From a virus (Duplodnaviria > Caudoviricetes), in the IMG/VR virus record IMGVR_UViG_3300024297_000001: 64,000 bases of DNA; one strand, given 5' to 3'. Under the pieces are notes generated by a model that saw only the letters and a program-made list of their open reading frames with translations, ran no database searches and was not told the DNA's origin. The translations under genes and the position numbers were made by a program. Below, one piece after another: positions 8,257 to 26,716 of the stretch; the first letter of the stretch is position 1, and every line of letters begins with the position of its first letter.

Positions 8257-8498
8257 AAATTAGGTACTATCGAAATATCAAGGGGTGGCGTTGGTTAGGA
8301 TTTTTTCTTGCCATGGCATCTGCTTATATTTTAAGTAGTGGTAATCCTGACTACCAAGTTATGGGTTGGAGTGTTGCATGTTTTAGTTGTGGCATTTGGA
8401 TTTACATGGGTTGGAAAGACGGAGATACACCACGTGCATTGATGGAACTGTTTTATTTGGTACTTGCTATACGTGGAATTATTAACTGGATTCAATGA
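8253..8498 (+). CDS. Small 3-TM membrane protein (half-transporter-like)
   Basis: 81 aa with three hydrophobic segments; pattern similar to 57445 and 58491. Confidence 0.55.
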   Translation: MKIRYYRNIKGWRWLGFFLAMASAYILSSGNPDYQVMGWSVACFSCGIWIYMGWKDGDTPRALMELFYLVLAIRGIINWIQ

Positions 8499-9862
8499 GC
8501 GAAGTAGAAAGAATAAAGCAGATAATGCCAGAGGTCGACAAGATCTCTCCTACCTTCTGCTTGGCTAAATGGCACCACGTAACAATATATTTGCAAACAG
8601 GCGAAACACACAGTTGTTATCACCCAGCACCACATAAGATTCCACTTGAAGGATTAATTGACAATCCAAGTCAACTACACAATACACCGCAAAAGAAACA
8701 AGAACGTAAACAAATGCTTGAAGGCGAAAAGCCAAGCGGTTGTCAATACTGTTGGAATATTGAATGTATGGGTAAAGACTATATTAGTGATAGGCATATT
8801 AAAACAGCAAGTATATACACACCTAAACGTATTGAAGAAATAAAAAGTAATCCATGGGATTATAATATTAATCCAGAATACATTGAAATAAATTTTAGTA
8901 ATGAATGTAATTTTAAATGCGGTTACTGCCATCCTAAGTTTAGCAGTAGATACTATAACGAAATTAAAAAAGAAGGTCCATATACAGATGTATCTGCACA
9001 CCGTAATGACATTGATTGGTTTGAATTATATGAAGAAGAAACTAATCCTTATGTAGAAGCATGGTGGAAGTGGTGGCCAGAAGTTAGTAAGACACTAAAC
9101 ATCTTACGTGTTACAGGCGGCGAACCTTTAATGCACAAAAGTACTTGGCGTTTGTTTGACGAACTTGAAGCAAATCCTAAACCACATATTCAAATTGAAG
9201 TAAACAGTAACATGGGTGTTAAGGAATCTCTTGTACACAAACTTGTAGAACGTGTAAAAGAACTTAAAGCAAAGAACTGTATAAGAAGTTTCAAATTATA
9301 CACAAGCATAGATACTTGGGGACCTAAAGCAGAATACACAAGACGTGGATTAGATATTGAACTATGGGAAAAGAATTTAGATTACTATCTAACAGAACTT
9401 GGTTATCCTGTAACGTTTATGATTACATTTAACTTGTTTGCTGTAACGAGTTTTGATTTATTGCTTAATAAAATACTTGAATGGCGTAAGAAGTACACAA
9501 GATCTAATGCAGGTGTACAATGGCAAAACATTAGATTTGATACTCCTTATCTAAAAGAGCCAATACAGTTTGACATGAACATATTACCTAAGGATCAGTT
9601 TGTTCCGTACATGACAAGGCACCTACAGTTCATCGGAGACAACGTTGATGACAATGACCGCCATAAGTTTAGTTTGTTGGAGTATGAGCGTTTTAGACGT
9701 GTTGTAGACTATATGCGTACAACTACTTACGATGATAAGAAGTTAGCAATAGGACACAAAACTTTTTATAATTGGTTTACGCAATATGATAAACGTAGTG
9801 GTAGTAGTATTGTTAAAACGTTTCCGGAACTTAAAGAATTTTATGATTCTTGTAGATCTTAG
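8495..9862 (+). CDS. Radical SAM protein with N-terminal twitch/SPASM-like Cys region
   Basis: CNFKCGYC motif, TGGEP, and N-terminal CLAKW...SCYH...CQYC. Confidence 0.9.
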   Translation: MSEVERIKQIMPEVDKISPTFCLAKWHHVTIYLQTGETHSCYHPAPHKIPLEGLIDNPSQLHNTPQKKQERKQMLEGEKPSGCQYCWNIECMGKDYISDRHIKTASIYTPKRIEEIKSNPWDYNINPEYIEINFSNECNFKCGYCHPKFSSRYYNEIKKEGPYTDVSAHRNDIDWFELYEEETNPYVEAWWKWWPEVSKTLNILRVTGGEPLMHKSTWRLFDELEANPKPHIQIEVNSNMGVKESLVHKLVERVKELKAKNCIRSFKLYTSIDTWGPKAEYTRRGLDIELWEKNLDYYLTELGYPVTFMITFNLFAVTSFDLLLNKILEWRKKYTRSNAGVQWQNIRFDTPYLKEPIQFDMNILPKDQFVPYMTRHLQFIGDNVDDNDRHKFSLLEYERFRRVVDYMRTTTYDDKKLAIGHKTFYNWFTQYDKRSGSSIVKTFPELKEFYDSCRS

Positions 9863-10850
9863 AAGCAAGAATTTGATTGTGTGTTAACACAGCATTCATT
9901 TCATTTAACATTTCTTTACAGTCATCAATACTTAATAACTTAATGCTATCTAACAAGTAACGTATTTTGTTCATACGTTTTGTATGATCTTCTTCAGTAT
10001 CGTAACTTTCGTCCCAAGTAAATGTTTTAAATCCTAACTCACGAATGTATTCTAATGTATAAGGTGGTGCAACGCAAACAAAAGGACGTTTATGTATCAT
10101 TGCGTTAACAGTTTTCTCACTAAAGTTTCCTGTAGGCTGATAGAAACGTGTTTCGTTTGCTACAACGCAAAAACTTTTTTCATAGTAAGCAGATAAACTT
10201 GCTGGACCGTTTAGTTGTCCTATAGGCCATTTTTTATGTGCAGGGTCTATACTTTGTAATTCTGTATCAATGCTTAATGCTGGATCACTAAATGCCCAAC
10301 TATAGTAACCTGGTGTATCTTGTAAGTGTTCTATTATTAAACGTCTGTGTAAACTATAACGCCAATTAGGACAAATAAAGTGTTTATCAATATTGTTGTT
10401 AACATTAACAATACCGCCGTTGAATTGATTGCGTAAAAATATATCAAAGCATTTAAGTTCAAACGGATAGTAGTCTATATGTTTGTTTACATTGTAATCA
10501 CAAGTGTATACAGTAATTTCTGCATTTAATTTTTTACTAAATTCTAAAATACTATCTAATTCATCAGCACGTAATTTTTCTCCGCCTTGAAATTCGCTAA
10601 AGAAATCTCTGTTATGCTTTTTACCATCTTCGTATAATGTTAATGGTTCGTACAAATATATGTTAAGTTTTTTAAGTTTCTTTAACATTTTAGGAGTAAG
10701 AGGAAACTTATCAAAGTCTATATTATTTGTACCTGTGTATATAATAAAAGGATCTTTAGGAAACCAATGTTCAAATAGTTCAGTAAACATTGAACCTAAC
10801 TTTGTAGATTTTACAGGAAGGTTACCCCAGAATATATCTTGTTTGAACAT
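9831..10850 (-). CDS. GT-B/exostosin-like glycosyltransferase-like protein
   Basis: C-terminal FCVVANET...FSEKT..AMIHKRPFV...L..LGFKTF.WDESYD resembles GT-B (GT10/GT47-like) nucleotide-binding halves. Confidence 0.45.
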   Translation of the reverse strand: MFKQDIFWGNLPVKSTKLGSMFTELFEHWFPKDPFIIYTGTNNIDFDKFPLTPKMLKKLKKLNIYLYEPLTLYEDGKKHNRDFFSEFQGGEKLRADELDSILEFSKKLNAEITVYTCDYNVNKHIDYYPFELKCFDIFLRNQFNGGIVNVNNNIDKHFICPNWRYSLHRRLIIEHLQDTPGYYSWAFSDPALSIDTELQSIDPAHKKWPIGQLNGPASLSAYYEKSFCVVANETRFYQPTGNFSEKTVNAMIHKRPFVCVAPPYTLEYIRELGFKTFTWDESYDTEEDHTKRMNKIRYLLDSIKLLSIDDCKEMLNEMNAVLTHNQILASKIYKNHKIL

Positions 10851-11344
10851 TACCAGTAAGTGCCGGTGATTTGTAAAGTGTATCTTGGATCAACTCCAAT
10901 GTTGCTGGCCGCATGTGGAGTATCAGGTTGCCATAAAACATATTCACCTGCTTTCCAATTTACAAATGCTTTGCTATCTACTTCAAAGTAGTGTCCTGGT
11001 TTCCAGTCTTCTAAGAAAACAATAGCACGTCTTACTTCGTTACGTTCTTTGTTAAACACTTTACAATATGTATTATAATGATCAACGTGTGTAGGCATGA
11101 TATCTAACGTATCCATTTTGTAAAATACAAAACCAGGATTATGTAAATTAAGTAATTGTGCTACTTGAATTGCATAGTCAGGCATTGTATTACGACTGTC
11201 ATACATTTTGCCTGTTGTATTTTCATGCGTATAGCCTTGCTTACGCCAAGCGTCAGACTCAGCACCTGTAATAGGTTGTCTAACGTAATTGAAGTATTTG
11301 TATCCTTCGTCCCATAATACAGGACATTTACCTTTAGTCCACAT
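10850..11344 (-). CDS. 2OG-Fe(II) oxygenase/cupin
   Basis: PTHVD (HxD) ... PHAASN (distal His) ... RYTLQIT. Confidence 0.7.
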   Translation of the reverse strand: MWTKGKCPVLWDEGYKYFNYVRQPITGAESDAWRKQGYTHENTTGKMYDSRNTMPDYAIQVAQLLNLHNPGFVFYKMDTLDIMPTHVDHYNTYCKVFNKERNEVRRAIVFLEDWKPGHYFEVDSKAFVNWKAGEYVLWQPDTPHAASNIGVDPRYTLQITGTYW

Positions 11345-12302
11345 CTCTTTTTGTATCCAATGTTACGCAGTGAAATCCACCGCCAAGTGTACGTTGATGT
11401 CGCATTGGTAACATAGCACACTCTATTCCTTGGTGCTCAAGAAGGTGTCTTAGATCCTCTTGGTGTTCTTCTAATGCAACTAACTTTGTATTTACACTAA
11501 ACAAGTTCATGTTAATCCACGTACTTGCATTACACCATTTAGGATAGTGGCCAATGTCTACAGGTTCAGGACACCATATAATATCCCAATTTCTAAATGG
11601 CTCAGGTAAATCTTCTCTTACTTTTATTCTACTTGGATTAACAAGTAATAACCCTTCACGTAAAAATGCAACAGTACTGTCAATATGCATGTAACTATAA
11701 ACATTTTGTAATAGGTTTACTTTAGCAGTAGCACCTAAGGCACCTTGTAATAAATTTGCACCTAACTTGTTTGCACTATTACTAACCAAGTATAACAGTT
11801 GGTCGTTTGCACGAATTATATTCGCGGCATCAAAAGCAGGACTGTATTCATTAAGTGCTAAAATATCTTTATTGCCAATACATTCTTTATTGTATAATTG
11901 ACTTTCGTTGAAGCAACGTATTTCTTTTGGGTTATCTAAATGATCTTCAAATGCTCTCCACTCGCCTTTTCTTGCACGTATAGGCATTGGTGTAGCAAGT
12001 GTTAGGTTACCATGTATAAACACACTGTCTCGAGGACAGTAATTATAGTAATGACAATCTGTTTTCTCTGGACGTACAACTTCTACACTTTCTGCTTGTA
12101 AAAATTTTACAAATGTTTCTAAGTCTTCATTTGCTTCTTCAATAACTTTACTTGGGTAAGGACCTTTGATAATTTCTGTTTCGTCTTTTTTATCTGCAAA
12201 ATTAACACAACGTAAACTAATATCTATATCATAAGGTATCTTGGCTTTGTCTGCAATGCCAACAATTACTTTTCTAAGTTGTCCCCATTCGTTTGTGTTC
12301 AT
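11334..12302 (-). CDS. Amidinotransferase (AGAT/StrB1-like)
   Basis: NEWGQLRKVIVG, CPRD, FDAAN (Asp), MHIDST (His) and GGGFHCVTLD (Cys) give the full pentein catalytic triad. Confidence 0.9.
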   Translation of the reverse strand: MNTNEWGQLRKVIVGIADKAKIPYDIDISLRCVNFADKKDETEIIKGPYPSKVIEEANEDLETFVKFLQAESVEVVRPEKTDCHYYNYCPRDSVFIHGNLTLATPMPIRARKGEWRAFEDHLDNPKEIRCFNESQLYNKECIGNKDILALNEYSPAFDAANIIRANDQLLYLVSNSANKLGANLLQGALGATAKVNLLQNVYSYMHIDSTVAFLREGLLLVNPSRIKVREDLPEPFRNWDIIWCPEPVDIGHYPKWCNASTWINMNLFSVNTKLVALEEHQEDLRHLLEHQGIECAMLPMRHQRTLGGGFHCVTLDTKRDVD

Positions 12303-12883
12303 TTAAAAACCTTCATGTCTGGAAGATATGGATAATCATTACTGCTCCATTCCTTTGTTGGTTCAGTAACGTTTTCTAATTTTTCAATACCAAGTTGTGC
12401 AGTTTCTGGAGTCATATAATAATGATATCCTATGTATTGAATGTCTTGTTCGCCCCATGGCTTATCATCTGTTCTACCATCATGTGCCATTGCTTTTAAT
12501 ACTGCATAGTCTGTTTCATTAGGACATAATATTGCACCGCCTCTACCTAAACTTAACATTTTCTTATGTTGAAAACTCAAACACTTATAGGTGTTAGGCA
12601 TGTAACTATTACGTTTGAAACTAACAGCACCGTCTATAATTCTTGTACCACCTAATACATATTCTTCATTCCAAGAAGCATCAACAAACTCCCAATCAAT
12701 GTTTAACTTCATTAATGTAAATGGAATACTAATATACGTTCTTGTAGGTATCTTTACGTGGTTAGGCTTTAGATATCGTAAACAAAGTTCAATAGAATGG
12801 GTACAACTATCCGTTGCAACGGCAAATGGTGCATTATAATACTCTGCAATGCGTTTTTCGAACTCTTTCACGGTTTCAAACAT
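12299..12883 (-). CDS. Short DegT/DnrJ/EryC1/StrS-family PLP aminotransferase
   Basis: FEKRIAEY...ATDSCT, IIDGA, LSFQHKKMLSLGRGGAI (Schiff-base Lys region), GYHYYMT; about 194 aa. Start placed at ATG 12883. Confidence 0.8.
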   Translation of the reverse strand: MFETVKEFEKRIAEYYNAPFAVATDSCTHSIELCLRYLKPNHVKIPTRTYISIPFTLMKLNIDWEFVDASWNEEYVLGGTRIIDGAVSFKRNSYMPNTYKCLSFQHKKMLSLGRGGAILCPNETDYAVLKAMAHDGRTDDKPWGEQDIQYIGYHYYMTPETAQLGIEKLENVTEPTKEWSSNDYPYLPDMKVFK

Positions 12884-12888
12884 ACACA

Positions 12889-12896
12889 TATTTATA
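12889..12896 (-). promoter_or_regulatory. Perfect T4 late box TATAAATA, 5 nt before ATG 12883
   Basis: Plus strand tatttata at 12889-12896; divergent intergenic region. Confidence 0.65.
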
Positions 12897-12905
12897 TGCG
12901 TAGTT

Positions 12906-12913
12906 AATAAGTA
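12906..12913 (+). promoter_or_regulatory. Late-box variant AATAAGTA, 5 nt before GTG 12919
   Basis: Same N5 spacing as the other boxes, but with TAAGTA instead of TAAATA. Confidence 0.35.
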
Positions 12914-12918
12914 ATAGT

Positions 12919-12984
12919 GTGAGTGAAATTATTAAATTATCCGTATGGTCTGAAAAATATCAAAATATTGGAGAGAACGCATGA
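12919..12984 (+). CDS. Putative 21-aa leader peptide MSEIIKLSVWSEKYQNIGENA
   Basis: GTG start 5 nt after a late-like box; the TGA stop overlaps the ATG of 12981 (ATGA). Not in the ORF track. Confidence 0.3.
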   Translation: MSEIIKLSVWSEKYQNIGENA

Positions 12985-14165
12985 ATATAGGATTTTTAGG
13001 AGTCGGTAAACTCGGTATACCATGTGCAGAAGAAATAGTCAAAAAAGGTCATACAGTTTTTGGTTATGATACTGCTAAAATTACCAGCGAATTAATTATA
13101 CAAAAGCCTACAATCAAAGATGCAGTAACTGGTGCAGACATTGTGTTTGTTGCAGTACCAACACCGCATCACGAAGATTATGACGGTAAACGTCCTACAA
13201 GTCATTTACCACCAAAAGATTTTAATTACGATATTGTAAATGATGTTCTTGAAGAAGCAGACATGCATATGACAAAGGATCAATTGCTTGTTCTTATCAG
13301 TACAGTATTACCAGGTACAACACGTAGAGAATTTGTACCACGTGTTACACATACACGTTTTGTATATAACCCATATCTAATTGCAATGGGTACTGTGGGT
13401 TGGGATATGATTAATCCTGAGATGGTAATGATAGGAACTGACGATGGTAGCGAAACAGGTGATGCAAAACAATTAAAAGAATTTTATCAAAGCATTATGG
13501 AAAATGACCCACGCTATGTTATAGGAACATATGACGAGTGCGAATGTATCAAAGTGTTTTACAATACATTTATTTCTACTAAATTAAGTTTTGTTAACAT
13601 GATTCAAGATGTTGCACAACGTCAAGGTAACATTAATGTTGACGTAGTAACAAAAGCCTTAGCAGAAAGTACACAACGTATAATGAGTCCTGCATATATG
13701 ACAGCAGGCATGGGTGATGGTGGTAGTTGTCACCCAAGAGATAATATTGCTTTACGTTACATGGCAAAAGAATTAAATTTAGAATATGATATTTTTGATA
13801 ACATTATGAAAGCAAGAGAAATACAAGCAAAAAATCTTGCAAAGTTTGTTGTTGAAACAAAAAAGAAATATGGCGGAAGTATTTTCTTAAATGGTATATC
13901 ATACAAACCAGGCGTACCTTACATTGACGGAAGTTATGCACTACTTGTTGATCACTATGTTAAGGAACTTGGACACAGTATGATTTACATTGATCCACTT
14001 GCAAGTGAAATGCCAAGTAGTCAAGTAAGCCTTGGAGGTATTATTTTACTTGCACACCCAACCCCGTACTTAGAATACTCAACAGACTCAGTGTTTATTG
14101 ATCCGTGGAGAAAAATGAAACCTAATTCTAAGTATCTTGTCATACAATACGGAAACACAAGATAA
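12981..14165 (+). CDS. UDP-glucose/GDP-mannose dehydrogenase family protein (non-canonical motifs)
   Basis: GVGKLG Rossmann motif, VAVPTP, LISTVLPGTT, IKVFYNTFISTK and GDGGSCHPRD (catalytic Cys); C-terminal domain present. Confidence 0.9.
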   Translation: MNIGFLGVGKLGIPCAEEIVKKGHTVFGYDTAKITSELIIQKPTIKDAVTGADIVFVAVPTPHHEDYDGKRPTSHLPPKDFNYDIVNDVLEEADMHMTKDQLLVLISTVLPGTTRREFVPRVTHTRFVYNPYLIAMGTVGWDMINPEMVMIGTDDGSETGDAKQLKEFYQSIMENDPRYVIGTYDECECIKVFYNTFISTKLSFVNMIQDVAQRQGNINVDVVTKALAESTQRIMSPAYMTAGMGDGGSCHPRDNIALRYMAKELNLEYDIFDNIMKAREIQAKNLAKFVVETKKKYGGSIFLNGISYKPGVPYIDGSYALLVDHYVKELGHSMIYIDPLASEMPSSQVSLGGIILLAHPTPYLEYSTDSVFIDPWRKMKPNSKYLVIQYGNTR

Positions 14166-14977
14166 TGTTTTACACTAAGGATCATCCGTTATTATATTTT
14201 CCTGAAATAGCAGGTAAAAGTTTACAATGGTATTGTGGTGACGATTTAGAAAACTACAATCAGTACAACAAAGAAGGTTGGGAGTATCATAATACTGCTG
14301 ATAAGTTAGAATACAACTTTAACAGTCTTGGATATCGTACAAAAGAATTAACGGGTCTTAATAACGATTATATTTTAGTGTTCGGGTGCAGTTATACTGA
14401 AGGCGTAGGTTTATACGAAGAACAAATATGGTGTAATAAAATTAGCAAGATGTATGATATAGACGTAATAAACTTAGCCAAAGCAGGTACAGGACCTGAT
14501 ATTGTTGCGTTAAATACACAATTATTCATAAAGAACAAATTTGTACTTCCTAAATGCGTCTTAATTCAATGGCCACAATCGTCACGAAAAAGTTTTGCAT
14601 ACACTGAAAAGAAATTGTTTACTAATCAAATAAGATTAGAAGATAGGAATATTATGTTCCTTCCAGACGGAACTGAAGAAGAATACGAAATGATGGACTC
14701 AGTTTGGTACCACAAACGTTGGGTTCATGAACAAGGACAAATGAATTATGAGAATTTGTATCATCTAAATAGTGTAAACAATATATGGAACGCACTTGGT
14801 GTGCCTGTACATAATTGGACATTCCAAGCAGACTTTAAAACAAAGTATGACAAAGATATGGTACAAACAGTAAAAACAAAGATGACTGGTCGTGCAAGAG
14901 ATGAGGCCCATGACGGAGAAAGCATACACGACCAAGTTGTCGCACAAATAAAGGATAAAGTAAAATGTATGATATAG
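14165..14977 (+). CDS. SGNH hydrolase/acyltransferase-like protein
   Basis: LVFGCSYTEG (block I Ser), NLAKAG, and C-terminal RDEAHDG (DxxH). Confidence 0.55.
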   Translation: MFYTKDHPLLYFPEIAGKSLQWYCGDDLENYNQYNKEGWEYHNTADKLEYNFNSLGYRTKELTGLNNDYILVFGCSYTEGVGLYEEQIWCNKISKMYDIDVINLAKAGTGPDIVALNTQLFIKNKFVLPKCVLIQWPQSSRKSFAYTEKKLFTNQIRLEDRNIMFLPDGTEEEYEMMDSVWYHKRWVHEQGQMNYENLYHLNSVNNIWNALGVPVHNWTFQADFKTKYDKDMVQTVKTKMTGRARDEAHDGESIHDQVVAQIKDKVKCMI

Positions 14978-15654
14978 TCTTCATAAGTTACGGCGAACCA
15001 AACGCTGATGAAAACTGGAAACATATTAAGCAAATGTTTCCTATGGCGAAACGTGTAAAAGATGTTAAAGGTTTACATCAAGCACACATTGCCGCGGCTA
15101 AAAAATGTTTTACAAAAATGTTCTGGGTTATTGATGCTGATGCAGAGTTAATGCCAGACTTTGATTTTAATTTTGAGGTTTCCGAGTGGGATTTAGAAAC
15201 AGTGCATGTATGGCGAAGTATAAATCCGATCAACGACTTGGAATACGGGTATGGAGGTGTAAAGTTATTACCGCGATCACTCACACTGAACATGGACACT
15301 TCCATGCCCGACATGACTACAAGTATCAGTGATAAGTTCAAAGCAATGCCAGAGATAAGTTGCGTAACAGGATTTAACACTGATCCTTTGAGTACTTGGC
15401 GTGGAGCATTTAGAGAATGTGCAAAATTAGCAAGTAAAACTATTCCAGGACAAGTAGATGAAGAAACAGAGAAGCGTTTGGAAACATGGCTTACTGTTGG
15501 TGCTGAAAGACAGTACGGAAAGATTGCAATGCACGGAGCGGCATGTGGTAAGCAATTTGGAGAACACTATAGAGGCAATGTAGAAGCACTTGCAATGTTA
15601 AATGATTTTGATTATTTAGAAGAGGAGTTTAATGAACACAAAGATTCCTTTTAA
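14965..15654 (+). CDS. GT-A-like (GT2-like) protein
   Basis: IVFISYGEPNADENW...AHIAAAK...WVIDAD (DxD); paralog of 7369..8256. Confidence 0.55.
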   Translation: MYDIVFISYGEPNADENWKHIKQMFPMAKRVKDVKGLHQAHIAAAKKCFTKMFWVIDADAELMPDFDFNFEVSEWDLETVHVWRSINPINDLEYGYGGVKLLPRSLTLNMDTSMPDMTTSISDKFKAMPEISCVTGFNTDPLSTWRGAFRECAKLASKTIPGQVDEETEKRLETWLTVGAERQYGKIAMHGAACGKQFGEHYRGNVEALAMLNDFDYLEEEFNEHKDSF

Positions 15655-16591
15655 GGATATTGTCAGCCTTGGACAAAAGACAATGCTGGATACTAATCTA
15701 TTCAGCGTTAGTTGGATCCTCGGCAGGTTTTGTAATTACAAGTGTAGTTACTGTTGGCCTTATGCTAACACTGACAAGCCAGACTATCAGGAATTAGAAA
15801 TCTATAAAACATCTATTGATGAAATTAAGAAACAAGCAAAAGCAAATGGCTTTGACAAGTTTCATTTTAGTTTTAGTGGAGGAGAGCCTACAGCATACAA
15901 AGGCTTTTTAGATTTAGTTAATCACTATGAAGATTATGAAAGTGAATACCTAAGCATACACATGACAAGTAATTGTAGTCCAGCAAAGAAATGGTGGAAG
16001 AAGTTTTTAGATGTTACAGATGTTATGGACAGAAGAAGTATTACAGCAAGTTTTCATGCAGAATTTGCAAATGAAAAAGAATTCGGAGATAAACTTTTAT
16101 ATCTCCAAGACGAAGGTGTACTTGTAACTATTAATCAAGTTATGGTACCCGAACTATGGGAGGAATATTATGCCAGAAGTAAAAGATTTATTGAACGGGG
16201 TTTACACGTTACTCTTAAGCCTCAGTCTGATCCTACCGCTTCTTTTGTGGTTGATGGTTATACCGAGGAACAAAAAGAAATATTGCGTACCGAAAGCGAA
16301 CAATCGGTCCATCAAGTATCGCTCAAAGATGTTAATGGAGTAGAATACAGTATTGACCAAGCAGAAAGATTAAATGCTTTTGGTTTTAATAAATTTAAAG
16401 GTTGGGAATGTAATAGCGGATATCAAAGTTGTATAATTAGAAACAATGAAGTTAAACGTAGTTACAGTTGCCATGATACACCATTAGGAACATTAACTGA
16501 AGGGTTCAGTTTGTTTGATAAGCCAATGCCTTGTATTACACCAAGTTGTGTAAGCAGTGCAGATAGTAAAATACCAAAGAGAAAAATATGA
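15632..16591 (+). CDS. Radical SAM protein with C-terminal Cys cluster
   Basis: CNYKCSYC, SGGEP, C-terminal GWECNSG...C...CITPSC; paralog of 21383..22327. Confidence 0.9.
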   Translation: MNTKIPFKDIVSLGQKTMLDTNLFSVSWILGRFCNYKCSYCWPYANTDKPDYQELEIYKTSIDEIKKQAKANGFDKFHFSFSGGEPTAYKGFLDLVNHYEDYESEYLSIHMTSNCSPAKKWWKKFLDVTDVMDRRSITASFHAEFANEKEFGDKLLYLQDEGVLVTINQVMVPELWEEYYARSKRFIERGLHVTLKPQSDPTASFVVDGYTEEQKEILRTESEQSVHQVSLKDVNGVEYSIDQAERLNAFGFNKFKGWECNSGYQSCIIRNNEVKRSYSCHDTPLGTLTEGFSLFDKPMPCITPSCVSSADSKIPKRKI

Positions 16592-17340
16592 AAATAGGAA
16601 TAGCAGGATACGGATATGTCGGTAAAGCCATTGCCGAATCTATGAAAGACAAATACGAAGTGCTAATTAACGATCCAGCACTTGGTCATAAAGCAAGTTT
16701 TAAAGAAGTACAGGCACTTATAGTGTGTGTAAGCACACCAAGAAGTTCAGCAGGTTATTGTGTAATGGATAATGTGTATCAGGTAATAGAAAAAGCATCT
16801 AATGAGATTCCTATACTAATTAAAAGCACAATTAGTCTTGAAGGTTGGCGTATGCTTAAAGATACGTTTCCTGAAAAGGAAATAACATTCAGTCCAGAGT
16901 TTTTAACTGCCGCAAATGCAAACTCAGACTTTGCAAACACGCAACAAATTTTACTTGGTGGAGATAATACACAGTTTTGGTCAGGATTTTTTGTAGACTT
17001 ACTTGGTACTGTTGATGTAAAGATTGCAGATCCAGAAGATCTTGTAATAGCCAAGTATGTACGTAACAGTTATCTTGCATTAAAGGTTACATATTTTAAT
17101 CAGTTGTATGATTTCTGTGAAAAAGCAGGTGTAGACTTTGAACAAGTAAGGAAATATGTTGCAGATGACTCTCGTATAGGATACAGTCATACTAATGTAA
17201 CAAAAGAACGTGGATTTGGTGGGCATTGTTTTCCTAAAGACGTAGATGCGTTCTTACATCAAGCAAAAGGATATAATACTGAACTTTCACTGCTTGAAGA
17301 AGCAGTTAAATATAATAGTAAGATTAGAAATGAAAATTGA
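16588..17340 (+). CDS. UDP-glucose 6-dehydrogenase-like protein lacking the C-terminal domain
   Basis: GYGYVG, LIKST, FSPEFL, AKYVRNSYLALK, GFGGHCFPKD; ends at 250 aa. Confidence 0.85.
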   Translation: MKIGIAGYGYVGKAIAESMKDKYEVLINDPALGHKASFKEVQALIVCVSTPRSSAGYCVMDNVYQVIEKASNEIPILIKSTISLEGWRMLKDTFPEKEITFSPEFLTAANANSDFANTQQILLGGDNTQFWSGFFVDLLGTVDVKIADPEDLVIAKYVRNSYLALKVTYFNQLYDFCEKAGVDFEQVRKYVADDSRIGYSHTNVTKERGFGGHCFPKDVDAFLHQAKGYNTELSLLEEAVKYNSKIRNEN

Positions 17341-17938
17341 TATTCAAGATATTAAGTTCTGGATGGACGCAATTCGCAATAGCGAAGATAAAGATCGTAC
17401 ATTAGAAACTTTCTGGGGTGGTCAAATACAATCCAAGTTATGGTTGATTGAAACTGTCGCTGAAAAAAACAAAATGATCCGAAATGCTGAAATTGTTATA
17501 CATGGAGGTTGGAATGGATTGTTAGCAAGTATGCTATTCAACAGTGAAATAGGTATTAAGAAAGTTGTAAGTGTTGATGTTGATCCTGTATGCAAAGAAA
17601 TTGCAACTACAGTAAACAAGAGATACGAAATGGAAGGTAAGTTTGAAGCAGTAACCTGCGATATGGTAGATTACGAATACACAGCAGAACCATACATTGT
17701 AATTAATACAAGTTGCGAACATATTACACAAGACAAATACAAAAAGTGGTTAGCAAAAGTTCCTGATTCAGCACAAGTTGTTGTACAAAGTAATGACTAC
17801 TATGAATTAGAAGAACATATTAACTGTTGTAAGAACTTAGAACAGTTTGCAAGACGAAGTTTGTTAGATGTAGATATTAAAGACGAAATAGAATTACCCA
17901 AATATAAACGTTTTATGGTTATAGGAAAGAAAAAATGA
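17330..17938 (+). CDS. Class I SAM-dependent methyltransferase-like protein
   Basis: VIHGGWNG followed by VVSVDVDP (motif I/II) and VINTSCEH. Start moved to ATG 17330. Confidence 0.6.
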   Translation: MKIDIQDIKFWMDAIRNSEDKDRTLETFWGGQIQSKLWLIETVAEKNKMIRNAEIVIHGGWNGLLASMLFNSEIGIKKVVSVDVDPVCKEIATTVNKRYEMEGKFEAVTCDMVDYEYTAEPYIVINTSCEHITQDKYKKWLAKVPDSAQVVVQSNDYYELEEHINCCKNLEQFARRSLLDVDIKDEIELPKYKRFMVIGKKK

Positions 17939-18552
17939 TTCACAGACTTACACAATACGGTCAACTTATAGAATTAGACATCACAACAGATGCTGAGGCA
18001 ATGATTGCTTGGGCAAATGAATTTGATTGGGTAAAATATAATCCACGTAAGGATATTAATCGTTGGGGTTTAAGTATTACAAGTTTAGATGGCGGTATTA
18101 CAGGTGTACCAGACTTAGATAGTTTGTATGAATATAACAAAGAAAACAAAACAGGATATAACGAAAAAGATTTTAATGTGCCTACACCAGTTCTAAACAA
18201 ACAAATAGAAGAAGTGTTAGAACCTTGGAAGGACAATTACTATAGAACACACTTTTTAAAGTTTGGTCCAGGCGGATTCTTTCCTCCACATAGAGATTGG
18301 AACTACAGTTCAGGTAGAGCAGACAGTTTTAGATTGATAATGCCTTTGCGTAATGTTAATCCACCTTATTTTAATTTTGTATTAGAAGATAAAATGCTAC
18401 ATTGGGAAGTAGGTAGACTATACTTTGTAGATACTTTAAAAATGCACTACCTATTCAATAGTGGCTTTAATGATAGTTACTGGTTAATTGTAAATGTTGA
18501 TCTAAATCCAGACACTGTTAATGCTACACTTGGGAGATTAAATCAAAAGTAA
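17935..18552 (+). CDS. 2OG-Fe(II) oxygenase (Asp/Asn beta-hydroxylase-like)
   Basis: GGFFPPHRD (HxD) ... DTLKMHYLFN. Confidence 0.75.
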   Translation: MIHRLTQYGQLIELDITTDAEAMIAWANEFDWVKYNPRKDINRWGLSITSLDGGITGVPDLDSLYEYNKENKTGYNEKDFNVPTPVLNKQIEEVLEPWKDNYYRTHFLKFGPGGFFPPHRDWNYSSGRADSFRLIMPLRNVNPPYFNFVLEDKMLHWEVGRLYFVDTLKMHYLFNSGFNDSYWLIVNVDLNPDTVNATLGRLNQK

Positions 18553-19550
18553 TGTATAACTACGAAGATATTACATCAATACATTTAGAAGTAACTTCTA
18601 AGTGCCAAGCAAGATGTCCTATGTGTCCAAGACGATTACATGGCGGACCGTTACTTGAAGGCTTAGACTTGGAAGAAATATCTATTGACACTTTTAAGGA
18701 ATGGTTTCCTGTAAGTTTTGTACAACAATTAAAGTTTCTTAATATGTGTGGTAACTTGGGCGATCCTATTGTTGCAAAAGACACATTAGAAATTTTTAGA
18801 TATCTACGTGAAAACAATTCAGAAATGACATTGCAAATGCACACTAACGGAAGTGGTAGAACTAAAGAGTGGTGGCGCGGACTTGCAGAACTAAAAGTAA
18901 AAGTTGTGTTTGGCATTGACGGACTTGGAGATACTCATGCACTATACAGAATAAACACTAACTGGGAAAAGATTATTAACAATGCATCACAGTTTATACA
19001 CGTAGGCGGAGATGCACGTTGGGACATGCTTGTATTCAAACATAACGAACACCAAGTTGATACTTGTGAAAAGATGAGCAAGGAGTTAGGATTCAAAGGA
19101 TTTAGTATTAAACATACAACAAGATTCAAAGACGGTAGGTTTGATGTGCTTGATGACAACTACAAAATCACACATACCTTATTGCCGTCAAGTAAGAGTC
19201 TTGAAATGATTGCTCCGGCAAAAGAAGCACAACAAGAAAAGTTGCCTTTAATTACTTGCAAAGCAAAACAAGATAATCAAATGTACATAAGTGCAAATGG
19301 TAATGTTAGTCCTTGCTGTTGGTTAGACTTAGAATGGTTACCACAGCACAGTGGTAGTAGAATAGATTACATGGTAAAGATTGGTAAGTTTCCTAACTTG
19401 CATAAACAATCATTTAAAGAAATATTTGACAGCAACTTCTTTAGTAGTATTAGTGGTTGTTGGACTTCAACAGGACTTGCAGAATGTTCTAAACAGTGTG
19501 GAAAGTTTGACAAACTAAATGCACAGTTTGAAAGGAAGGAACATGTCTAA
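18552..19550 (+). CDS. Radical SAM protein with C-terminal twitch/SPASM domain
   Basis: CQARCPMC; C-terminal C...YISANGNVSPCC...C.KQC; paralog of 25672..26658. Confidence 0.9.
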   Translation: MYNYEDITSIHLEVTSKCQARCPMCPRRLHGGPLLEGLDLEEISIDTFKEWFPVSFVQQLKFLNMCGNLGDPIVAKDTLEIFRYLRENNSEMTLQMHTNGSGRTKEWWRGLAELKVKVVFGIDGLGDTHALYRINTNWEKIINNASQFIHVGGDARWDMLVFKHNEHQVDTCEKMSKELGFKGFSIKHTTRFKDGRFDVLDDNYKITHTLLPSSKSLEMIAPAKEAQQEKLPLITCKAKQDNQMYISANGNVSPCCWLDLEWLPQHSGSRIDYMVKIGKFPNLHKQSFKEIFDSNFFSSISGCWTSTGLAECSKQCGKFDKLNAQFERKEHV

Positions 19551-20847
19551 AACATTTTGTCCTTTACCTTGGATACATTTAGCAACAAGACCTAACGGCG
19601 ATGTTAGAGTTTGTTGTACTGCTAATGCATCAGGTGCAGGAGTTGAAGATGACAAGACAGCAGGACTTGTTAAGAAAGACGGAGTAAGCATGAACTTGCG
19701 TGAACACACTATTGAAGAAGTATGGAATAGTGAACACATGCGTCGAACAAGATTGCAAATGTTAAATGATGAGATACCAGCAAGTTGTCGTAAATGTTTT
19801 GCAGAAGAAAGCAAAGGTATTGTTAGCAAACGTCAATGGGAAACAGAAGTATGGAAACAACGTTTAGACATAGATAGTATTGTAGCAAAAACAGGAGAAC
19901 AAGGTGACTTACCTGTAAATGTTCCTTACTTTGATTTACGTTTAGGTAATGTATGTCAACTTAAATGTGTTATGTGTAGTCCACATGATTCAAGTAGTTG
20001 GATTAAGGAATGGAAACTAAATCATCCTAAGTATACAAACAAAGATTTAATTAACGATCAAAGTTGGAATGAAGACTTTGATTACACTTGGTATAAGAAA
20101 GGATCGTTTCTTGATTCTATGAAAGACCAAGCACAGCACATCAAAGAATTATATTTTGCAGGTGGCGAGCCTCTAATGATTCCTGAACACTATAACATAT
20201 TACAATTTATGGTTGATGAAGGACATGCTGAAAATTGTTGTATTAGATATAACAGTAATGGACTTGTATTGAAACCTGAACTGTTTGTGTTATGGCAACA
20301 CTTTAAAGAAGTAACATTTAACTTTAGTATTGATGCATATGGTGAAAAGAATGATTACATACGTCACCCAAGCAAATGGGCAGACATTGAAAAGAATATA
20401 AAAATACTTGATTCAAGTAATGCAAATATTAATATTAACATAGCGTCAGCAGTACAGATGTTTAATGTAGCACATCTTGATGAACTTGCTGAATGGAAAC
20501 TTGATCAAAAGTTTAGTAAAGTAAATGCACAAACACAAGGCGGTATGATTAGTACACACCTTGTATACTTTCCGTCTTACTTAAATGTACGAGTGTTACC
20601 AGAAGAGTATAAACAGTTTGCTAAAAAACGCATTGAAGCATTTATAGAAAGACAAAAATTTAACACACAATGGATTCAACACCCAATGGGCCAAGTACGT
20701 TGGGAAGGTTTAATAAAATATATGATGGAAGAAGACTGGTCAGCAAAGTTACCTCAAACACTTGATTACATAAGAGTACTTGATGAACAACGTGGATTAG
20801 ACTACACTAAAATATTTCCTGAACTTGGAGAGGCTTTATGCAAGTAG
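19543..20847 (+). CDS. Radical SAM protein with N-terminal twitch domain
   Basis: MSKTFCPLPW...NGDVRVCC...CRKC, then CQLKCVMC and AGGEP. Confidence 0.9.
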   Translation: MSKTFCPLPWIHLATRPNGDVRVCCTANASGAGVEDDKTAGLVKKDGVSMNLREHTIEEVWNSEHMRRTRLQMLNDEIPASCRKCFAEESKGIVSKRQWETEVWKQRLDIDSIVAKTGEQGDLPVNVPYFDLRLGNVCQLKCVMCSPHDSSSWIKEWKLNHPKYTNKDLINDQSWNEDFDYTWYKKGSFLDSMKDQAQHIKELYFAGGEPLMIPEHYNILQFMVDEGHAENCCIRYNSNGLVLKPELFVLWQHFKEVTFNFSIDAYGEKNDYIRHPSKWADIEKNIKILDSSNANININIASAVQMFNVAHLDELAEWKLDQKFSKVNAQTQGGMISTHLVYFPSYLNVRVLPEEYKQFAKKRIEAFIERQKFNTQWIQHPMGQVRWEGLIKYMMEEDWSAKLPQTLDYIRVLDEQRGLDYTKIFPELGEALCK

Positions 20848-21428
20848 GATTAACAGGACACAAAGCAGGAATTGGAAAAGCATTTTACGAATTATACAAA
20901 CATGATTATGTTTGGGTACTGCTTGACAGAAATGAAGAATGGGCATGTGATGTAAGAGATACTGGAAAAGCATTTGATCATTTACGTGATGTTGATATCT
21001 TTATTAACAATGTTTACTGTGAAAATACACAAAGTACACTGTTTGATATGTGGAGTGTGTTTAATCAAGACAAAGACAAGTTATGTGTAAACATAGGATC
21101 AGTTGTTGCAAATACTACAAATGATATTTTCTTTGAAGAAGATTATTACAAAAACAAATTAGAACTACACACAAAAACACATCAATGGAATAGTTTAAGA
21201 CCTGAGTGTAAAGCAAGTCTTGTTGTTCCTGCATTTTGTGATACAGACTTTGCAGGCAAAGATGTTTATAAAAGCAAAGAAGTATTAGAAGAACTAAGAA
21301 CAAAGTTTCATTATTTTAAAAAACAACACAAATTATTAAAACCAGAATCAGTTGCAAAAGTAATTAAGTTTATAATTGATGAATGGGAAAGTGGAAACCA
21401 TATCAATACATTAGAGATGAGAAATTGA
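20838..21428 (+). CDS. Short-chain dehydrogenase/reductase
   Basis: TGHKAGIG (TGxxxGxG), FINN, NIGS, YYKNK (YxxxK). Confidence 0.75.
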   Translation: MQVGLTGHKAGIGKAFYELYKHDYVWVLLDRNEEWACDVRDTGKAFDHLRDVDIFINNVYCENTQSTLFDMWSVFNQDKDKLCVNIGSVVANTTNDIFFEEDYYKNKLELHTKTHQWNSLRPECKASLVVPAFCDTDFAGKDVYKSKEVLEELRTKFHYFKKQHKLLKPESVAKVIKFIIDEWESGNHINTLEMRN

Positions 21429-22327
21429 AATTAGAATATGTAGACATAACGAAAAAAGATTGGTTCCTTGTTAGTTGGACTCTCAGCAACAAGTGTAACT
21501 ATCGTTGTGAATACTGTCCAGACATTTTACATAACGGAAGTACAGGACAACCTAAATGGGAAACTGTAAAAAACTTTGTTGAAAAATTAAAAGTACCTAA
21601 GACAATGTGTTACAGAATAAGTGGTGGAGAACCTACATACTGGAAACACTTTATTGATCTTGCAAAACTTGTAAAAAAACAAGGACACTATTTTAGTTTT
21701 GTCACAAACGGAAGTCAACGTGTAAAGTATTACAAAGAAATTAGTAATTACACAGACGGATTTATTATTTCGTATCATCCACAATACGCAGACGTAGAAC
21801 ATTTTATTGAAGTAGCAAACAGTGTTGACTGTCCCGTTGCTGTACACCTAATGATGGTACCAGAAAAATTTAATGAGTTAGAAAGCATTGCTAAACAGTT
21901 ATATGAAGGTAGTGATAATCTTACAGTTGAGCCTAAGGTGATCGTAGACAAAACAAGTCAAGAACACGTAACAAATGAAGTTACAGTTTACACACCAGAG
22001 CAAAAAGATTTGATCAATAACTGGAAGTACAAACGAGAGTTTGACTTTAGTAATTTACACCGCGGAGAGTTACTACTAAATAATTCAGTAGTTACTGCTA
22101 ACGAAATCCTACTGCAAGAAAAAAATATGTTTAGTGGTTGGAAATGTTGGGCAGGTATTGATGGAGTAAATGTAGATATGTGGGGTAACCTATATAGAGC
22201 AGATTGTCAATTCGGCGGTGCGTTAGGTAACCTTGAACGTTATAAATTACCCACTGAGCCAATAGTATGTGGTAAAAGTGTGTGTAGTTGTTTAAGTGAT
22301 ATATTCATTAGGAAGGAAGTTGGATGA
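21383..22327 (+). CDS. Radical SAM protein with C-terminal Cys cluster
   Basis: CNYRCEYC, SGGEP, GWKCWAG...C...CGKSVCSC. True start may be TTG 21425. Confidence 0.9.
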   Translation: MGKWKPYQYIRDEKLKLEYVDITKKDWFLVSWTLSNKCNYRCEYCPDILHNGSTGQPKWETVKNFVEKLKVPKTMCYRISGGEPTYWKHFIDLAKLVKKQGHYFSFVTNGSQRVKYYKEISNYTDGFIISYHPQYADVEHFIEVANSVDCPVAVHLMMVPEKFNELESIAKQLYEGSDNLTVEPKVIVDKTSQEHVTNEVTVYTPEQKDLINNWKYKREFDFSNLHRGELLLNNSVVTANEILLQEKNMFSGWKCWAGIDGVNVDMWGNLYRADCQFGGALGNLERYKLPTEPIVCGKSVCSCLSDIFIRKEVG

Positions 22328-22575
22328 CAAACGTAACACGCAAAGATGCATATAGAGTTTTTTGGTTAGTAAAAGGTCACTTTAATGCAACAGAAGATTG
22401 TATCTTTGATTGTTATGATAGTTATTTTAAAAGAGTTTGGTACATGGAAGAAACATATTTACATGAAGAAGGTTTTGAAGAAGCATACGCAAAGGTAACA
22501 AACACATATACTCAACGTGCTTGGGACAGAACAGTTGGTTATGGAACAGTGCCAGAGGAATACAAATGCGAATAG
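22324..22575 (+). CDS. Hypothetical protein (83 aa)
   Basis: ORF overlapping both neighbours. Confidence 0.55.
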   Translation: MTNVTRKDAYRVFWLVKGHFNATEDCIFDCYDSYFKRVWYMEETYLHEEGFEEAYAKVTNTYTQRAWDRTVGYGTVPEEYKCE

Positions 22576-26658: not shown

Positions 26659-26663
26659 CATAG

Positions 26664-26711: not shown

Positions 26712-26716
26712 TGAGT

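What the first reader, a model, noticed from the sequence alone, without database searches (positions are those of the whole stretch)
9831..12896. Amidinotransferase + mini-DegT aminotransferase + oxygenase + GT operon: a guanidino-sugar (streptidine-like) module
Seen: a self-contained minus-strand unit under a perfect TATAAATA box, with an intact Cys-His-Asp amidinotransferase directly after a DegT-type aminotransferase. Established: in streptomycin biosynthesis a DegT-family aminotransferase makes an inosamine, and StrB1 transfers an amidino group from arginine to its phosphorylated form. Inference: this module turns a keto-sugar or cyclitol into an amino and then guanidino derivative, which the GT-B-like protein attaches. 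A kinase and SDRs elsewhere in the cluster would fit the same logic. Phage-made guanidino sugars are unknown to me.
Basis: partly seen in the sequence, partly recalled or inferred. Interest (0 to 1): 0.82.

Follow-up and report, generated by a model that had tools for sequence, protein, structure and literature searches.

The report
Phage amidinotransferase sugar-tailoring operon
A large marine phage carries a tightly coupled four-gene operon (a shrunken sugar aminotransferase, a streptomycin-type amidinotransferase, a small iron/2-oxoglutarate oxygenase and a glycosyltransferase) that recurs in hundreds of marine phage contigs and most likely makes a positively charged guanidino-sugar, which is not yet shown for any phage.

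Summary
Window 9831-12896 (minus strand) has four overlap-coupled genes behind a TATAAATA box:
- a 194-196 aa mini-DegT that keeps the PLP residues;
- a 322 aa amidinotransferase, nearest solved relative StrB1 (E 2e-57, about 40% identity), with Asp-His-Cys intact;
- a 164 aa 2OG/Fe oxygenase (HxD...H...R);
- a 339 aa GT-B glycosyltransferase.

In 83 related phage loci the amidinotransferase lies near the oxygenase in 75, the mini-DegT in 72 and the GT-B in 44, although gene order differs between clades. A UDP-sugar 6-dehydrogenase is a fifth frequent partner (44). Metagenomes hold natural fusions of mini-DegT with the GT-B and with the oxygenase. Together this marks one sugar pathway.

The acceptor is unknown. 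No cyclitol synthase was found, so a nucleotide-sugar route fits better than streptidine.

The genes have been listed before without a function: in Synechococcus phage S-SCSM2R (2025, as "antibiotic synthesis genes") and in Campylobacter phages CP220/CPt10 (2010). First readers of this scan noted similar cassettes in other genomes.

The guanidino-sugar product remains an inference. Interest is moderately high.

The parts
12889..12896 (-). TATAAATA box (T4-type late-promoter-like motif), 5 nt before the probable start codon of the first gene
   Evidence: 2 matches in 64 kb against 8.6 expected; (T/C)ATAAATA is conserved at the same distance from the MFETV start in 21 of 24 related loci. Reading it as a late promoter rests on general knowledge of T4-like phages and was not tested.
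12299..12889 (-). Mini-DegT: a 196 aa PLP-dependent sugar-aminotransferase-like protein (194 aa if it starts at 12883). It lacks about 50 mid-domain residues and the whole C-terminal domain.
   Evidence: Pfam PF01041, E 3e-16. Alignment A2 of 27 relatives has invariant Asp27/Thr30 (phosphate loop), Asp86 (pyridine-N Asp), Ser105-Phe-Gln-x-x-Lys110 (Schiff-base Lys) and Gly-Arg-Gly-Gly. Homodimer with PLP predicted at ipSAE 0.87, best control 0.00, pLDDT 93. It belongs to a family of roughly 200 aa proteins that is 97-100% viral.
11334..12302 (-). L-arginine-dependent amidinotransferase, 322 aa, StrB1-like
   Evidence: PDB sequence search: StrB1 1BWD E 2e-57, HsvA 3e-34, AGAT 1e-28, SxtG 2e-25. 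Arg91, Asp92, Arg111, Asp158, His206, Asp208, His311 and Cys312 are invariant. PHROG 25854, E 2e-32. More than 7,800 metagenomic relatives.
10850..11344 (-). Small 2-oxoglutarate/Fe(II) oxygenase, 164 aa, double-stranded beta-helix fold
   Evidence: Model pLDDT 91.5. Best structural matches are P. putida prolyl 4-hydroxylase, PolD, AsqJ, OlsC and PKHD-type hydroxylases. His86-x-Asp88...His144 are invariant and Arg154 nearly so (at least 90%) across 32 relatives.
9831..10850 (-). GT-B fold glycosyltransferase-like protein, 339 aa
   Evidence: Model pLDDT 85.5, pTM 0.87. All top Foldseek, VIA-align and Swiss-Prot matches are GT-B glycosyltransferases: TarM, Gtf3, GtfC, T4 beta-glucosyltransferase and fucosyltransferases, Z about 11 over about 250 residues. 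Invariant Glu233, Arg235, Asn242, Ser244, Glu245 and Lys246. The resemblance of this motif to the GT10 motif is my inference.
12981..14165 (+). Divergently transcribed UDP-glucose/GDP-mannose-type nucleotide-sugar 6-dehydrogenase, 394 aa. It is a co-conserved partner of the module.
   Evidence: Pfam PF00984/PF03721. PDB UDP-glucose and GDP-mannose dehydrogenases, E 1e-18. The catalytic Cys motif GGSCHPRD is kept. Present in 44 of 83 loci and directly fused in order to the amidinotransferase gene in several clades.

Best explanation
The four genes are a late-expressed, translationally coupled sugar-tailoring cassette. It sits inside the glycan / host-recognition island that follows the tail-fibre genes of a large marine myovirus.

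Proposed pathway (inferred, not shown):
1. The neighbouring nucleotide-sugar 6-dehydrogenase supplies an NDP-hexuronate.
2. The small 2OG/Fe oxygenase, or one of the island's radical SAM enzymes, oxidises a sugar carbinol to a ketone. This is the logic of Ugd -> ArnA -> ArnB, or of BtrN/KanJ.
3. The dimeric mini-DegT transaminates the ketone to an amine.
4. The StrB1-like amidinotransferase moves an amidino group from L-arginine, through its Cys312 thiouronium intermediate, onto that amine. This gives a guanidino-sugar and ornithine.
5. The GT-B enzyme transfers the cationic sugar, or a sugar onto which it is built, to a glycan on the virion or on the host envelope.

Shown here: the enzyme families, the intact catalytic residues, the conserved linkage and the natural fusions.
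Inferred: the substrates, the order of steps, the product and the target.
For: Families and catalytic residues.

Linkage across 83 viral loci (53 distinct amidinotransferase sequences, 61-100% identical): oxygenase in 75, mini-DegT in 72, GT-B in 44, dehydrogenase in 44. At least eight different gene orders occur:
- D-A-C-G;
- D-x-A-C-G;
- D-C-A;
- C-D-x-A-U;
- A-U-C-D;
- D-rSAM-GT-C-A in S-SCSM2R;
- C | D~G fusion-A-U;
- A-2OG-D~G fusion.
. Linkage that survives this much rearrangement argues for a shared function.

In one locus (L095) A-U-C-D, followed by one unidentified 276-aa gene, sits among small unrelated genes.

Fusions: mini-DegT + GT-B domain (P0124, P0136, P0183), mini-DegT + oxygenase (P0130), and GT1 + FkbM methyltransferase + mini-DegT (P0257). 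Each recurs in independent assemblies, with 15, 10, 4 and 2 cluster members.

At 40-47% amidinotransferase identity the same partners are still adjacent.

The mini-DegT is predicted to form the DegT-type dimer: ipSAE 0.87, best control 0.00. That mark was reached by 20 of 30 known homodimers and 1 of 23 monomers. Run agreement was at least 95% and pLDDT 93. The pass may reflect likeness to solved DegT dimers.

The conserved TATAAATA box and the position after tail-fibre genes in several loci fit late, virion-related expression.

Near-identical fragments of all four genes occur in contigs of RNA libraries from three studies. This is weak support, because DNA carry-over is not excluded.
Against: There is no biochemical evidence of any kind.

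The amidinotransferase family also uses glycine, lysine, polyamines and other amines. HsvA, a polyamine enzyme, is the second-best solved relative.

The mini-DegT lacks the C-terminal domain that helps full-length DegT enzymes hold nucleotide-sugars. Its substrate may therefore not be an NDP-sugar.

The oxygenase's nearest structures are protein, lipid and small-molecule hydroxylases (P4H, OlsC, PolD), not known sugar oxidases.

Linkage to the mini-DegT is not universal. One clade has A-C-G without it within 4.7 kb upstream and 8 kb downstream. Two loci show the amidinotransferase alone.

The GT-B is absent from about half of the loci.

The many loci are not independent, because several are near-identical.
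Confidence: 0.5

Rival explanations
1. The amidinotransferase makes a small guanidino metabolite from a non-sugar amine, such as guanidinoacetate, homoarginine or an amidino-polyamine as HsvA does. It would serve as an auxiliary metabolic gene, and its neighbours would work on something else.
For: Most characterised family members use amino acids or polyamines. HsvA is the second-best solved relative. JGI annotations call relatives glycine amidinotransferase. Two loci carry the gene without any of the partners. The bacterial relatives found lie in an NRPS cluster.
Against: The oxygenase and the mini-DegT are kept next to it in 87-90% of loci through many rearrangements. The mini-DegT is physically fused to the GT-B and to the oxygenase elsewhere. 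A nucleotide-sugar dehydrogenase gene is often overlap-coupled to it.
Confidence: 0.18
2. The cassette acts on a polymer rather than on a free sugar nucleotide. It would hydroxylate, aminate and amidinate residues or already-attached sugars of tail-fibre or other virion proteins. Examples would be hydroxylation of Pro/Lys/Asp followed by glycosylation, or conversion of amine side chains to guanidines.
For: The oxygenase is closest to protein prolyl hydroxylases and Asp/Asn-hydroxylase-type enzymes. The GT-B's neighbours include protein O-glycosyltransferases (GtfA, Gtf3, GtfC, SdgB) and EarP. The island has eight radical SAM / SPASM genes, a type often used for peptide maturation. The mini-DegT has lost the nucleotide-sugar-binding domain. 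The island lies directly after tail-fibre genes.
Against: A DegT-type PLP enzyme acting on a protein has no precedent that I know of. The co-conserved nucleotide-sugar dehydrogenase keeps its catalytic Cys, which points to a soluble sugar-nucleotide precursor.
Confidence: 0.14
3. The island makes a diffusible aminoglycoside-like or aminocyclitol-like compound (an 'antibiotic'), as the S-SCSM2R paper suggested.
For: StrB1 is the nearest solved relative. The mini-DegT gives weak hits to the 2-deoxy-scyllo-inosose aminotransferase and to AHBA synthase. Radical SAM enzymes are present, and one in the Campylobacter phage module is annotated BtrN. There is a weak APH-like mini-kinase at 24188-24664 (Pfam E 0.006, below cut-off). 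See also PMC12801897.
Against: No cyclitol synthase, exporter or resistance gene was recognised in the island. Late-promoter control and the tail-fibre neighbourhood fit virion or envelope glycans better. A lytic phage has little time to profit from a secreted antibiotic.
Confidence: 0.08
4. The cassette hypermodifies phage DNA, for example a glycosylated or aminated base that is then amidinated.
For: The GT-B matches T4 beta-glucosyltransferase as well as it matches any other GT-B. The distant amidinotransferase homologues in isolates are in Campylobacter phages, whose DNA I recall (not checked here) to carry modified guanine. An earlier unchecked note reports a separate 7-deazaguanine island in this same window.
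Against: No base hydroxymethylase or DNA-targeting enzyme is in the cassette. Late-type promoter and tail-fibre context. The GT-B is dispensable in half of the loci. The deazaguanine genes lie 30 kb away on their own.
Confidence: 0.06

Closest known systems
StrB1, L-arginine:inosamine-phosphate amidinotransferase of Streptomyces griseus (PDB 1BWD)
   Same: Best solved relative: E 2e-57, about 40% identity over 316 residues (counted from the alignment). It has the same Asp-His-Cys triad and the same arginine-binding Asp and Arg residues. It is likewise paired with a DegT-family aminotransferase in its pathway (the pairing is from general knowledge).
   Different: The phage enzyme is shorter (322 against 348 aa) and forms a phage-only clade. 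The scan of 185,579 species' genomes, limited to two short peptide patterns, found only two relatives, at 30-31% identity. No cyclitol synthase or clear inosamine kinase lies nearby. The acceptor is unknown.
Ugd - ArnA - ArnB route to UDP-4-amino-4-deoxy-L-arabinose (enterobacterial lipid A modification)
   Same: The same set of chemistries sits side by side: a nucleotide-sugar 6-dehydrogenase, an oxidising step that would give a keto-sugar, a DegT-family transaminase, and then a transferase. Both would give a cationic sugar for a surface glycan (pathway from general knowledge; the analogy is my inference).
   Different: The oxidant here would be a 2OG/Fe oxygenase or a radical SAM enzyme, not an SDR. 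The DegT is miniaturised. An amidinotransferase is added, which would turn the amine into a guanidine. None of this was tested.
Synechococcus phage S-SCSM2R ORF305-309 ('antibiotic synthesis genes', PMC12801897)
   Same: True homologues: amidinotransferase 62% identical, mini-DegT 53%, and the oxygenase is also recognisable. It is the only cultured phage found with the close form of the cassette.
   Different: The gene order is D-rSAM-GT-C-A-GT2. The paper only annotates the genes and leaves the function open.
Radical SAM + 'glycine amidinotransferase' module of Campylobacter phages CP220/CPt10 (PMC2853527)
   Same: An amidinotransferase (25% identical, triad kept) sits among five radical SAM genes plus a small aminotransferase. 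Three of those radical SAM proteins match radical SAM proteins of this window's island, weakly.
   Different: Very distant. No mini-DegT, oxygenase or GT-B homologue was detected there. Its function is equally unknown.
Host recognition cluster of pelagimyophages and cyanomyophages (PMC7029224)
   Same: A hypervariable island next to tail-fibre genes, holding glycosyltransferases, UDP-glucose 6-dehydrogenase and radical SAM cassettes. The authors read it as surface-glycan modification.
   Different: That paper does not mention the aminotransferase (no occurrence of the word), and the passages I read do not mention the cassette. The DNA polymerase of this window's phage is closest to jumbo phages (44-51% identity to Phosso, Atu_ph07, Rak2-like), not to classical T4-like cyanophages.

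Membership tests
Amidinotransferase (pentein / guanidino-group-modifying superfamily; AGAT, StrB1, HsvA, SxtG) | Full-length sequence similarity to characterised members | tested here: met
   1BWD E 2e-57 over residues 4-319; 5WPI 3e-34; 1JDW 2e-28; 6U1R 2e-25. Pfam and NCBIfam give no hit. A 47%-identical relative carries a faint PF02274 hit.
Amidinotransferase (pentein / guanidino-group-modifying superfamily; AGAT, StrB1, HsvA, SxtG) | Catalytic Cys-His-Asp triad and arginine-binding Asp/Arg residues | tested here: met
   Asp92, His206 and Cys312 align with StrB1 Asp108, His227 and Cys332. Arg111, Asp158 and Asp208 align with StrB1 Arg127, Asp179 and Asp229. All are invariant in alignments A1 and A5.
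Amidinotransferase (pentein / guanidino-group-modifying superfamily; AGAT, StrB1, HsvA, SxtG) | Arginine-dependent amidino transfer with ornithine release | not testable with these tools
   Needs an enzyme assay.
Inosamine-phosphate amidinotransferase (StrB1-type specificity, streptidine pathway) | Pathway context: inositol/inosose-forming enzyme, inosamine kinase, phosphorylated aminocyclitol acceptor | tested here: inconclusive
   No cyclitol synthase or inositol dehydrogenase family appeared in Pfam scans of about 34 island ORFs, but many ORFs have no family at all. There is only a sub-threshold APH-like hit at 24188-24664. A nucleotide-sugar dehydrogenase is the conserved partner instead.
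DegT/DnrJ/EryC1/StrS sugar aminotransferases (PF01041) | PLP-binding residues: Schiff-base Lys, pyridine-N Asp, phosphate loop | tested here: met
   Lys110 in SFQxKK aligns with the catalytic Lys of 7B0M. Asp86, Asp27/Thr30 and GRGG are invariant in 27 relatives.
DegT/DnrJ/EryC1/StrS sugar aminotransferases (PF01041) | Full two-domain fold-type-I architecture of about 360-400 aa | tested here: not met
   Only profile positions 24-93 and about 187-260 of 360 are matched. The whole family is about 190-260 aa. It is best called a miniaturised offshoot, not a canonical member.
DegT/DnrJ/EryC1/StrS sugar aminotransferases (PF01041) | Homodimer with the active site at the interface | tested here: met
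   Prediction only: ipSAE 0.87 against best control 0.00. That mark was reached by 20 of 30 known homodimers and 1 of 23 single chains. Run agreement at least 95%, pLDDT 93. The interface includes invariant residues 27-31, 52-54 and 137-139. The pass may reflect memory of solved DegT dimers.
2-oxoglutarate/Fe(II)-dependent oxygenases | Double-stranded beta-helix fold with an HxD/E...H iron triad and a 2OG-binding Arg | tested here: met
   Model pLDDT 91.5. Foldseek probability 1.00 to P4H, PolD, AsqJ, OlsC and PKHD hydroxylases. His86, Asp88 and His144 are invariant and Arg154 is nearly invariant.
GT-B glycosyltransferases | Two Rossmann-like domains with an inter-domain cleft | tested here: met
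   Model pLDDT 85.5. VIA-align Z 10-11 over about 250 residues spanning both domains. The best 50 rows are all glycosyltransferases.
GT-B glycosyltransferases | Nucleotide-sugar donor use and a defined CAZy family | tested here: inconclusive
   No Pfam or PHROG hit. There is a weak language-model lead to GT10 (score 0.80-0.81) and an invariant NETR...NFSEK motif. The donor is unknown.

The most novel reading that the evidence does not exclude
Marine phages widely encode a phage-specific, miniaturised pathway that builds a guanidino-sugar from a nucleotide-hexuronate and arginine (for example a 4-guanidino-4-deoxy pentose or uronate). They would install this permanently cationic sugar on their own virions or on the host envelope late in infection. 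That would be a glycan chemistry so far known only from a few actinomycete antibiotics (from memory).
Probability: 0.33. Interest if true: 0.82.

Novelty: new variant of a known kind. Interest (0 to 1): 0.66.

Why it matters
If the product is a guanidino-sugar, it would add a new, strongly cationic building block to phage and host surface glycans. Such a sugar could affect adsorption, superinfection exclusion, stickiness of virions to particles, or resistance to host defences in the ocean.

The family is abundant: more than 7,800 metagenomic relatives, 273 viral contig stretches, and presence in many seawater metagenomes. The effect would therefore be ecologically broad.

The cassette also offers naturally minimised enzymes of interest for enzymology: a 195 aa DegT and a 164 aa 2OG oxygenase.

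It also gives a testable handle on the unexplained radical SAM + amidinotransferase modules of Campylobacter phages. S-SCSM2R is a cultured phage in which the idea can be tested directly.

Tried and rejected
- Pfam and NCBIfam gave no hit for the amidinotransferase or the GT-B. PHROGs gave only an unnamed family.
- No whole genome is held for the window, so a second amidinotransferase could not be sought.
- Megablast of 25 kb against isolate phages found nothing. My early reading of a "T4-like cyanophage" was dropped after the DNA polymerase matched jumbo phages best.
- The scan of bacterial genomes found only two distant relatives, in an actinomycete NRPS context. That scan was limited to two short peptide patterns, so it does not prove absence from cells.
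- I considered that the neighbouring dehydrogenase might stop at the C6 aldehyde and so feed a 6-amino / 6-guanidino sugar. I rejected this because the catalytic Cys is kept.
- A named phylogeny against AGAT, StrB1, CyrA and SxtG could not be built, because no named reference sequences were available in the box. Only the order of PDB bit scores is given.
- The literature search for 'guanidino sugar' returned nothing. No paper found assigns a function to this cassette.
- RNA-library contigs cover only parts of the operon, at low depth. Gaps (for example 9408-9708) and the lack of start sites say nothing.
- The APH-like mini-kinase is below the Pfam threshold.

Full report
**What is there**

Window 9831-12896 holds four minus-strand ORFs. 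They are joined by overlaps of 4 nt (ATGA), 11 nt and 1 nt (TAATG). They form an inverted unit between plus-strand genes. At the 3' side the unit overlaps the end of a radical SAM gene by 32 nt. At the 5' side a 91-bp spacer separates it from a divergent dehydrogenase gene at 12981.

A perfect TATAAATA lies at 12896-12889. The motif occurs only twice in 64 kb against 8.6 expected. (T/C)ATAAATA is conserved 5 nt before the ATG of the conserved MFETV N-terminus in 21 of the 24 distinct-sequence relatives whose mini-DegT is at least 65% identical. The annotated first ATG (12889) lies inside the box. The true start is therefore probably 12883, and the mRNA would have almost no leader. Calling the box a T4-type late promoter rests on general knowledge and was not tested.

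**The four proteins**

1. Mini-DegT, 196 aa.
   - It matches Pfam DegT_DnrJ_EryC1 (E 3e-16), but only over two pieces of the profile.
   - Twenty-seven relatives keep the phosphate loop (Asp27/Thr30), the pyridine-N Asp (Asp86), the SFQxxK Schiff-base lysine (Lys110) and GRGG.
   - About 50 mid-domain residues and the whole C-terminal domain are missing.
   - This is not a truncation artefact. A search of 1.8 billion representatives found 436 clusters at E <= 1e-10, nearly all 190-260 aa long. The closest Atlas clusters are 97-100% viral.
   - A homodimer with PLP is predicted with ipSAE 0.87 against 0.00 for the best control. That mark was reached by 20 of 30 known homodimers and 1 of 23 single chains. 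Run agreement was at least 95% and pLDDT 93. The pass may reflect likeness to solved DegT dimers.
2. Amidinotransferase, 322 aa.
   - It has no Pfam or NCBIfam hit but matches StrB1 (1BWD) at E 2e-57. By my count from the printed alignment that is about 40% identity.
   - HsvA, AGAT and SxtG follow.
   - Asp92, His206 and Cys312 align with the StrB1 triad, and Arg111, Asp158 and Asp208 align with its substrate-binding residues.
   - All are invariant in relatives down to 23% identity.
3. Oxygenase, 164 aa.
   - It folds with pLDDT 91.5 into a double-stranded beta-helix.
   - Closest structures are P. putida prolyl hydroxylase, PolD, AsqJ, OlsC and PKHD-type hydroxylases.
   - His86-x-Asp88...His144 are invariant and Arg154 nearly so.
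4. GT-B protein, 339 aa.
   - It folds with pLDDT 85.5.
   - It matches only glycosyltransferases, at Z about 11 over about 250 residues.
   - It has an invariant NETR...NFSEK motif.

**Is the grouping meaningful?**

The amidinotransferase has more than 7,800 metagenomic relatives and 273 matching stretches in viral contigs. In a pattern-limited scan of 185,579 species' genomes, only two relatives appeared, both at 30-31% identity.

In 83 viral loci (53 distinct sequences, 61-100% identical) I found:
- the oxygenase in 75;
- the mini-DegT in 72;
- the GT-B in 44;
- the UDP-glucose/GDP-mannose-type dehydrogenase in 44.

Several of the misses are contig ends. The gene order differs between clades:
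- D-A-C-G;
- D-x-A-C-G;
- D-C-A;
- C-D-x-A-U;
- A-U-C-D;
- D-rSAM-GT-C-A in the cultured phage S-SCSM2R.

Linkage that survives such shuffling argues for a shared function.

The strongest evidence is fusion. Metagenomes hold proteins in which the mini-DegT is fused to a domain homologous to this GT-B (P0124, P0136, P0183). Others fuse it to the oxygenase (P0130), or to a GT1 plus an FkbM methyltransferase (P0257). Each fusion was seen in several independent assemblies. Around two of the mini-DegT-GT-B fusions, an amidinotransferase only 40-47% identical to this one is again adjacent.

Exceptions exist. One clade has A-C-G with no mini-DegT nearby, and two loci have the amidinotransferase alone.

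**Context**

The cassette lies in a roughly 25-kb island with eight radical SAM genes, two Asp/Asn-hydroxylase-type oxygenases, two sugar dehydrogenases and many unassigned ORFs. In several related loci the island starts right after tail-fibre genes. This matches the host recognition cluster described for pelagimyophages and cyanomyophages (PMC7029224).

The phage itself is not a classical T4-like cyanophage. Its DNA polymerase is closest (44-51% identity) to jumbo phages Phosso, Atu_ph07 and the Rak2-like group. No isolate matches at the DNA level.

The stretch occurs word for word in at least 14 seawater or marine metagenome runs. Fragments occur in contigs of RNA libraries from three studies. 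That is weak evidence of expression.

**How it most likely works**

The enzyme set reads as consecutive steps on one sugar: oxidation to a ketone, transamination, amidination and transfer.

The co-conserved dehydrogenase keeps its catalytic cysteine, so an NDP-hexuronate is a likely entry point. The combination of dehydrogenase, oxidant and DegT then parallels Ugd-ArnA-ArnB, which makes a cationic amino-pentose. The amidinotransferase would turn that amine into a guanidine. The mini-DegT-oxygenase and mini-DegT-GT-B fusions fit neighbouring steps.

All of this is inference. No cyclitol-forming enzyme was recognised, so the streptidine-like version is less likely than a nucleotide-sugar version.

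The loss of the DegT C-terminal domain and the protein-hydroxylase-like oxygenase keep open a rival in which the enzymes work on an already attached glycan or on a protein.

**What is known already**

The S-SCSM2R paper lists the homologues (ORF305, ORF306, ORF309) as "antibiotic synthesis genes" and says their role is unclear (PMC12801897).

Timms et al. noted in 2010 that CP220 and CPt10 each carry an interchangeable cluster of five radical SAM genes plus a putative glycine amidinotransferase (PMC2853527). I confirmed this in a CP220-like phage. Three of its radical SAM proteins match radical SAM proteins of this window's island, weakly.

No paper found assigns a function. First readers of this scan noted similar cassettes in other genomes.

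**Verdict**

The family assignments and the functional coupling are well supported. The guanidino-sugar product is a reasonable but untested inference.

This is a new, phage-specific variant of known chemistry (amidinotransferase plus DegT logic) inside a known kind of phage glycan island.

Noticed in passing
window 12883-12896 and related loci L008-L043: The (T/C)ATAAATA box ends 5 nt before the conserved start codon, leaving no room for a ribosome-binding site. The first gene may be translated from a leaderless or near-leaderless late mRNA. TATAAATA is also strongly depleted in the window (2 against 8.6 expected).
   Followed up: partly
window 16588-17340: A second UDP-glucose/GDP-mannose dehydrogenase paralogue of only 250 aa. 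It keeps the catalytic GGHCFPKD motif but lacks the C-terminal UDP-binding domain. The next ORF (17246-17938) is not that domain; it looks like a class I methyltransferase. This is another miniaturised enzyme, alongside the mini-DegT and the mini-APH-like ORF at 24188-24664.
   Followed up: partly
window 54722-57397: The DNA polymerase is closest (44-51% aa identity) to jumbo phages Sinorhizobium Phosso, Agrobacterium Atu_ph07, Vibrio 2.275.O and Rak2-like coliphages. The window's phage is probably a marine jumbo myovirus rather than a classical T4-like cyanophage. Relatives of the cassette sit on contigs of 246-343 kb.
   Followed up: partly
P0124, P0136, P0183, P0130, P0257; loci L097, L098, L099: Natural multi-domain proteins fuse the mini-DegT to the GT-B family, to the small 2OG oxygenase, or to GT1 + FkbM methyltransferase. 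They recur in independent assemblies and would be good targets for structural work.
   Followed up: yes
L093 (Campylobacter phage vB_CjeM_WX1 104500-119417): A CP220-type module: five radical SAM genes, an amidinotransferase (25% identical, triad kept) and a short class I/II aminotransferase. Three of the radical SAM proteins match window ORFs 15632, 21383 and 25672, weakly. Its function has been unknown since 2010.
   Followed up: partly
window 8495-26754: Eight radical SAM genes. Three of them (19519, 23095, 24630) have the SPASM-type Cys-rich domain before the radical SAM core rather than after it (Pfam coordinates).
   Followed up: partly
PQ898602.1 (S-SCSM2R) ORF266: The S-SCSM2R paper reports a different 'glycine amidinotransferase' (ORF266) and a prolyl dihydroxylase-like protein (ORF269) in the purified virion proteome. 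tblastn with this window's enzyme found only ORF309 in that genome, so ORF266 is a distant or unrelated protein that I did not examine.
   Followed up: no
L062, L064, and L056/L061/L065/L071: Some phage lineages keep the amidinotransferase alone, or with only the oxygenase and the GT-B (no mini-DegT within several kb). The amine acceptor may sometimes come from the host.
   Followed up: partly
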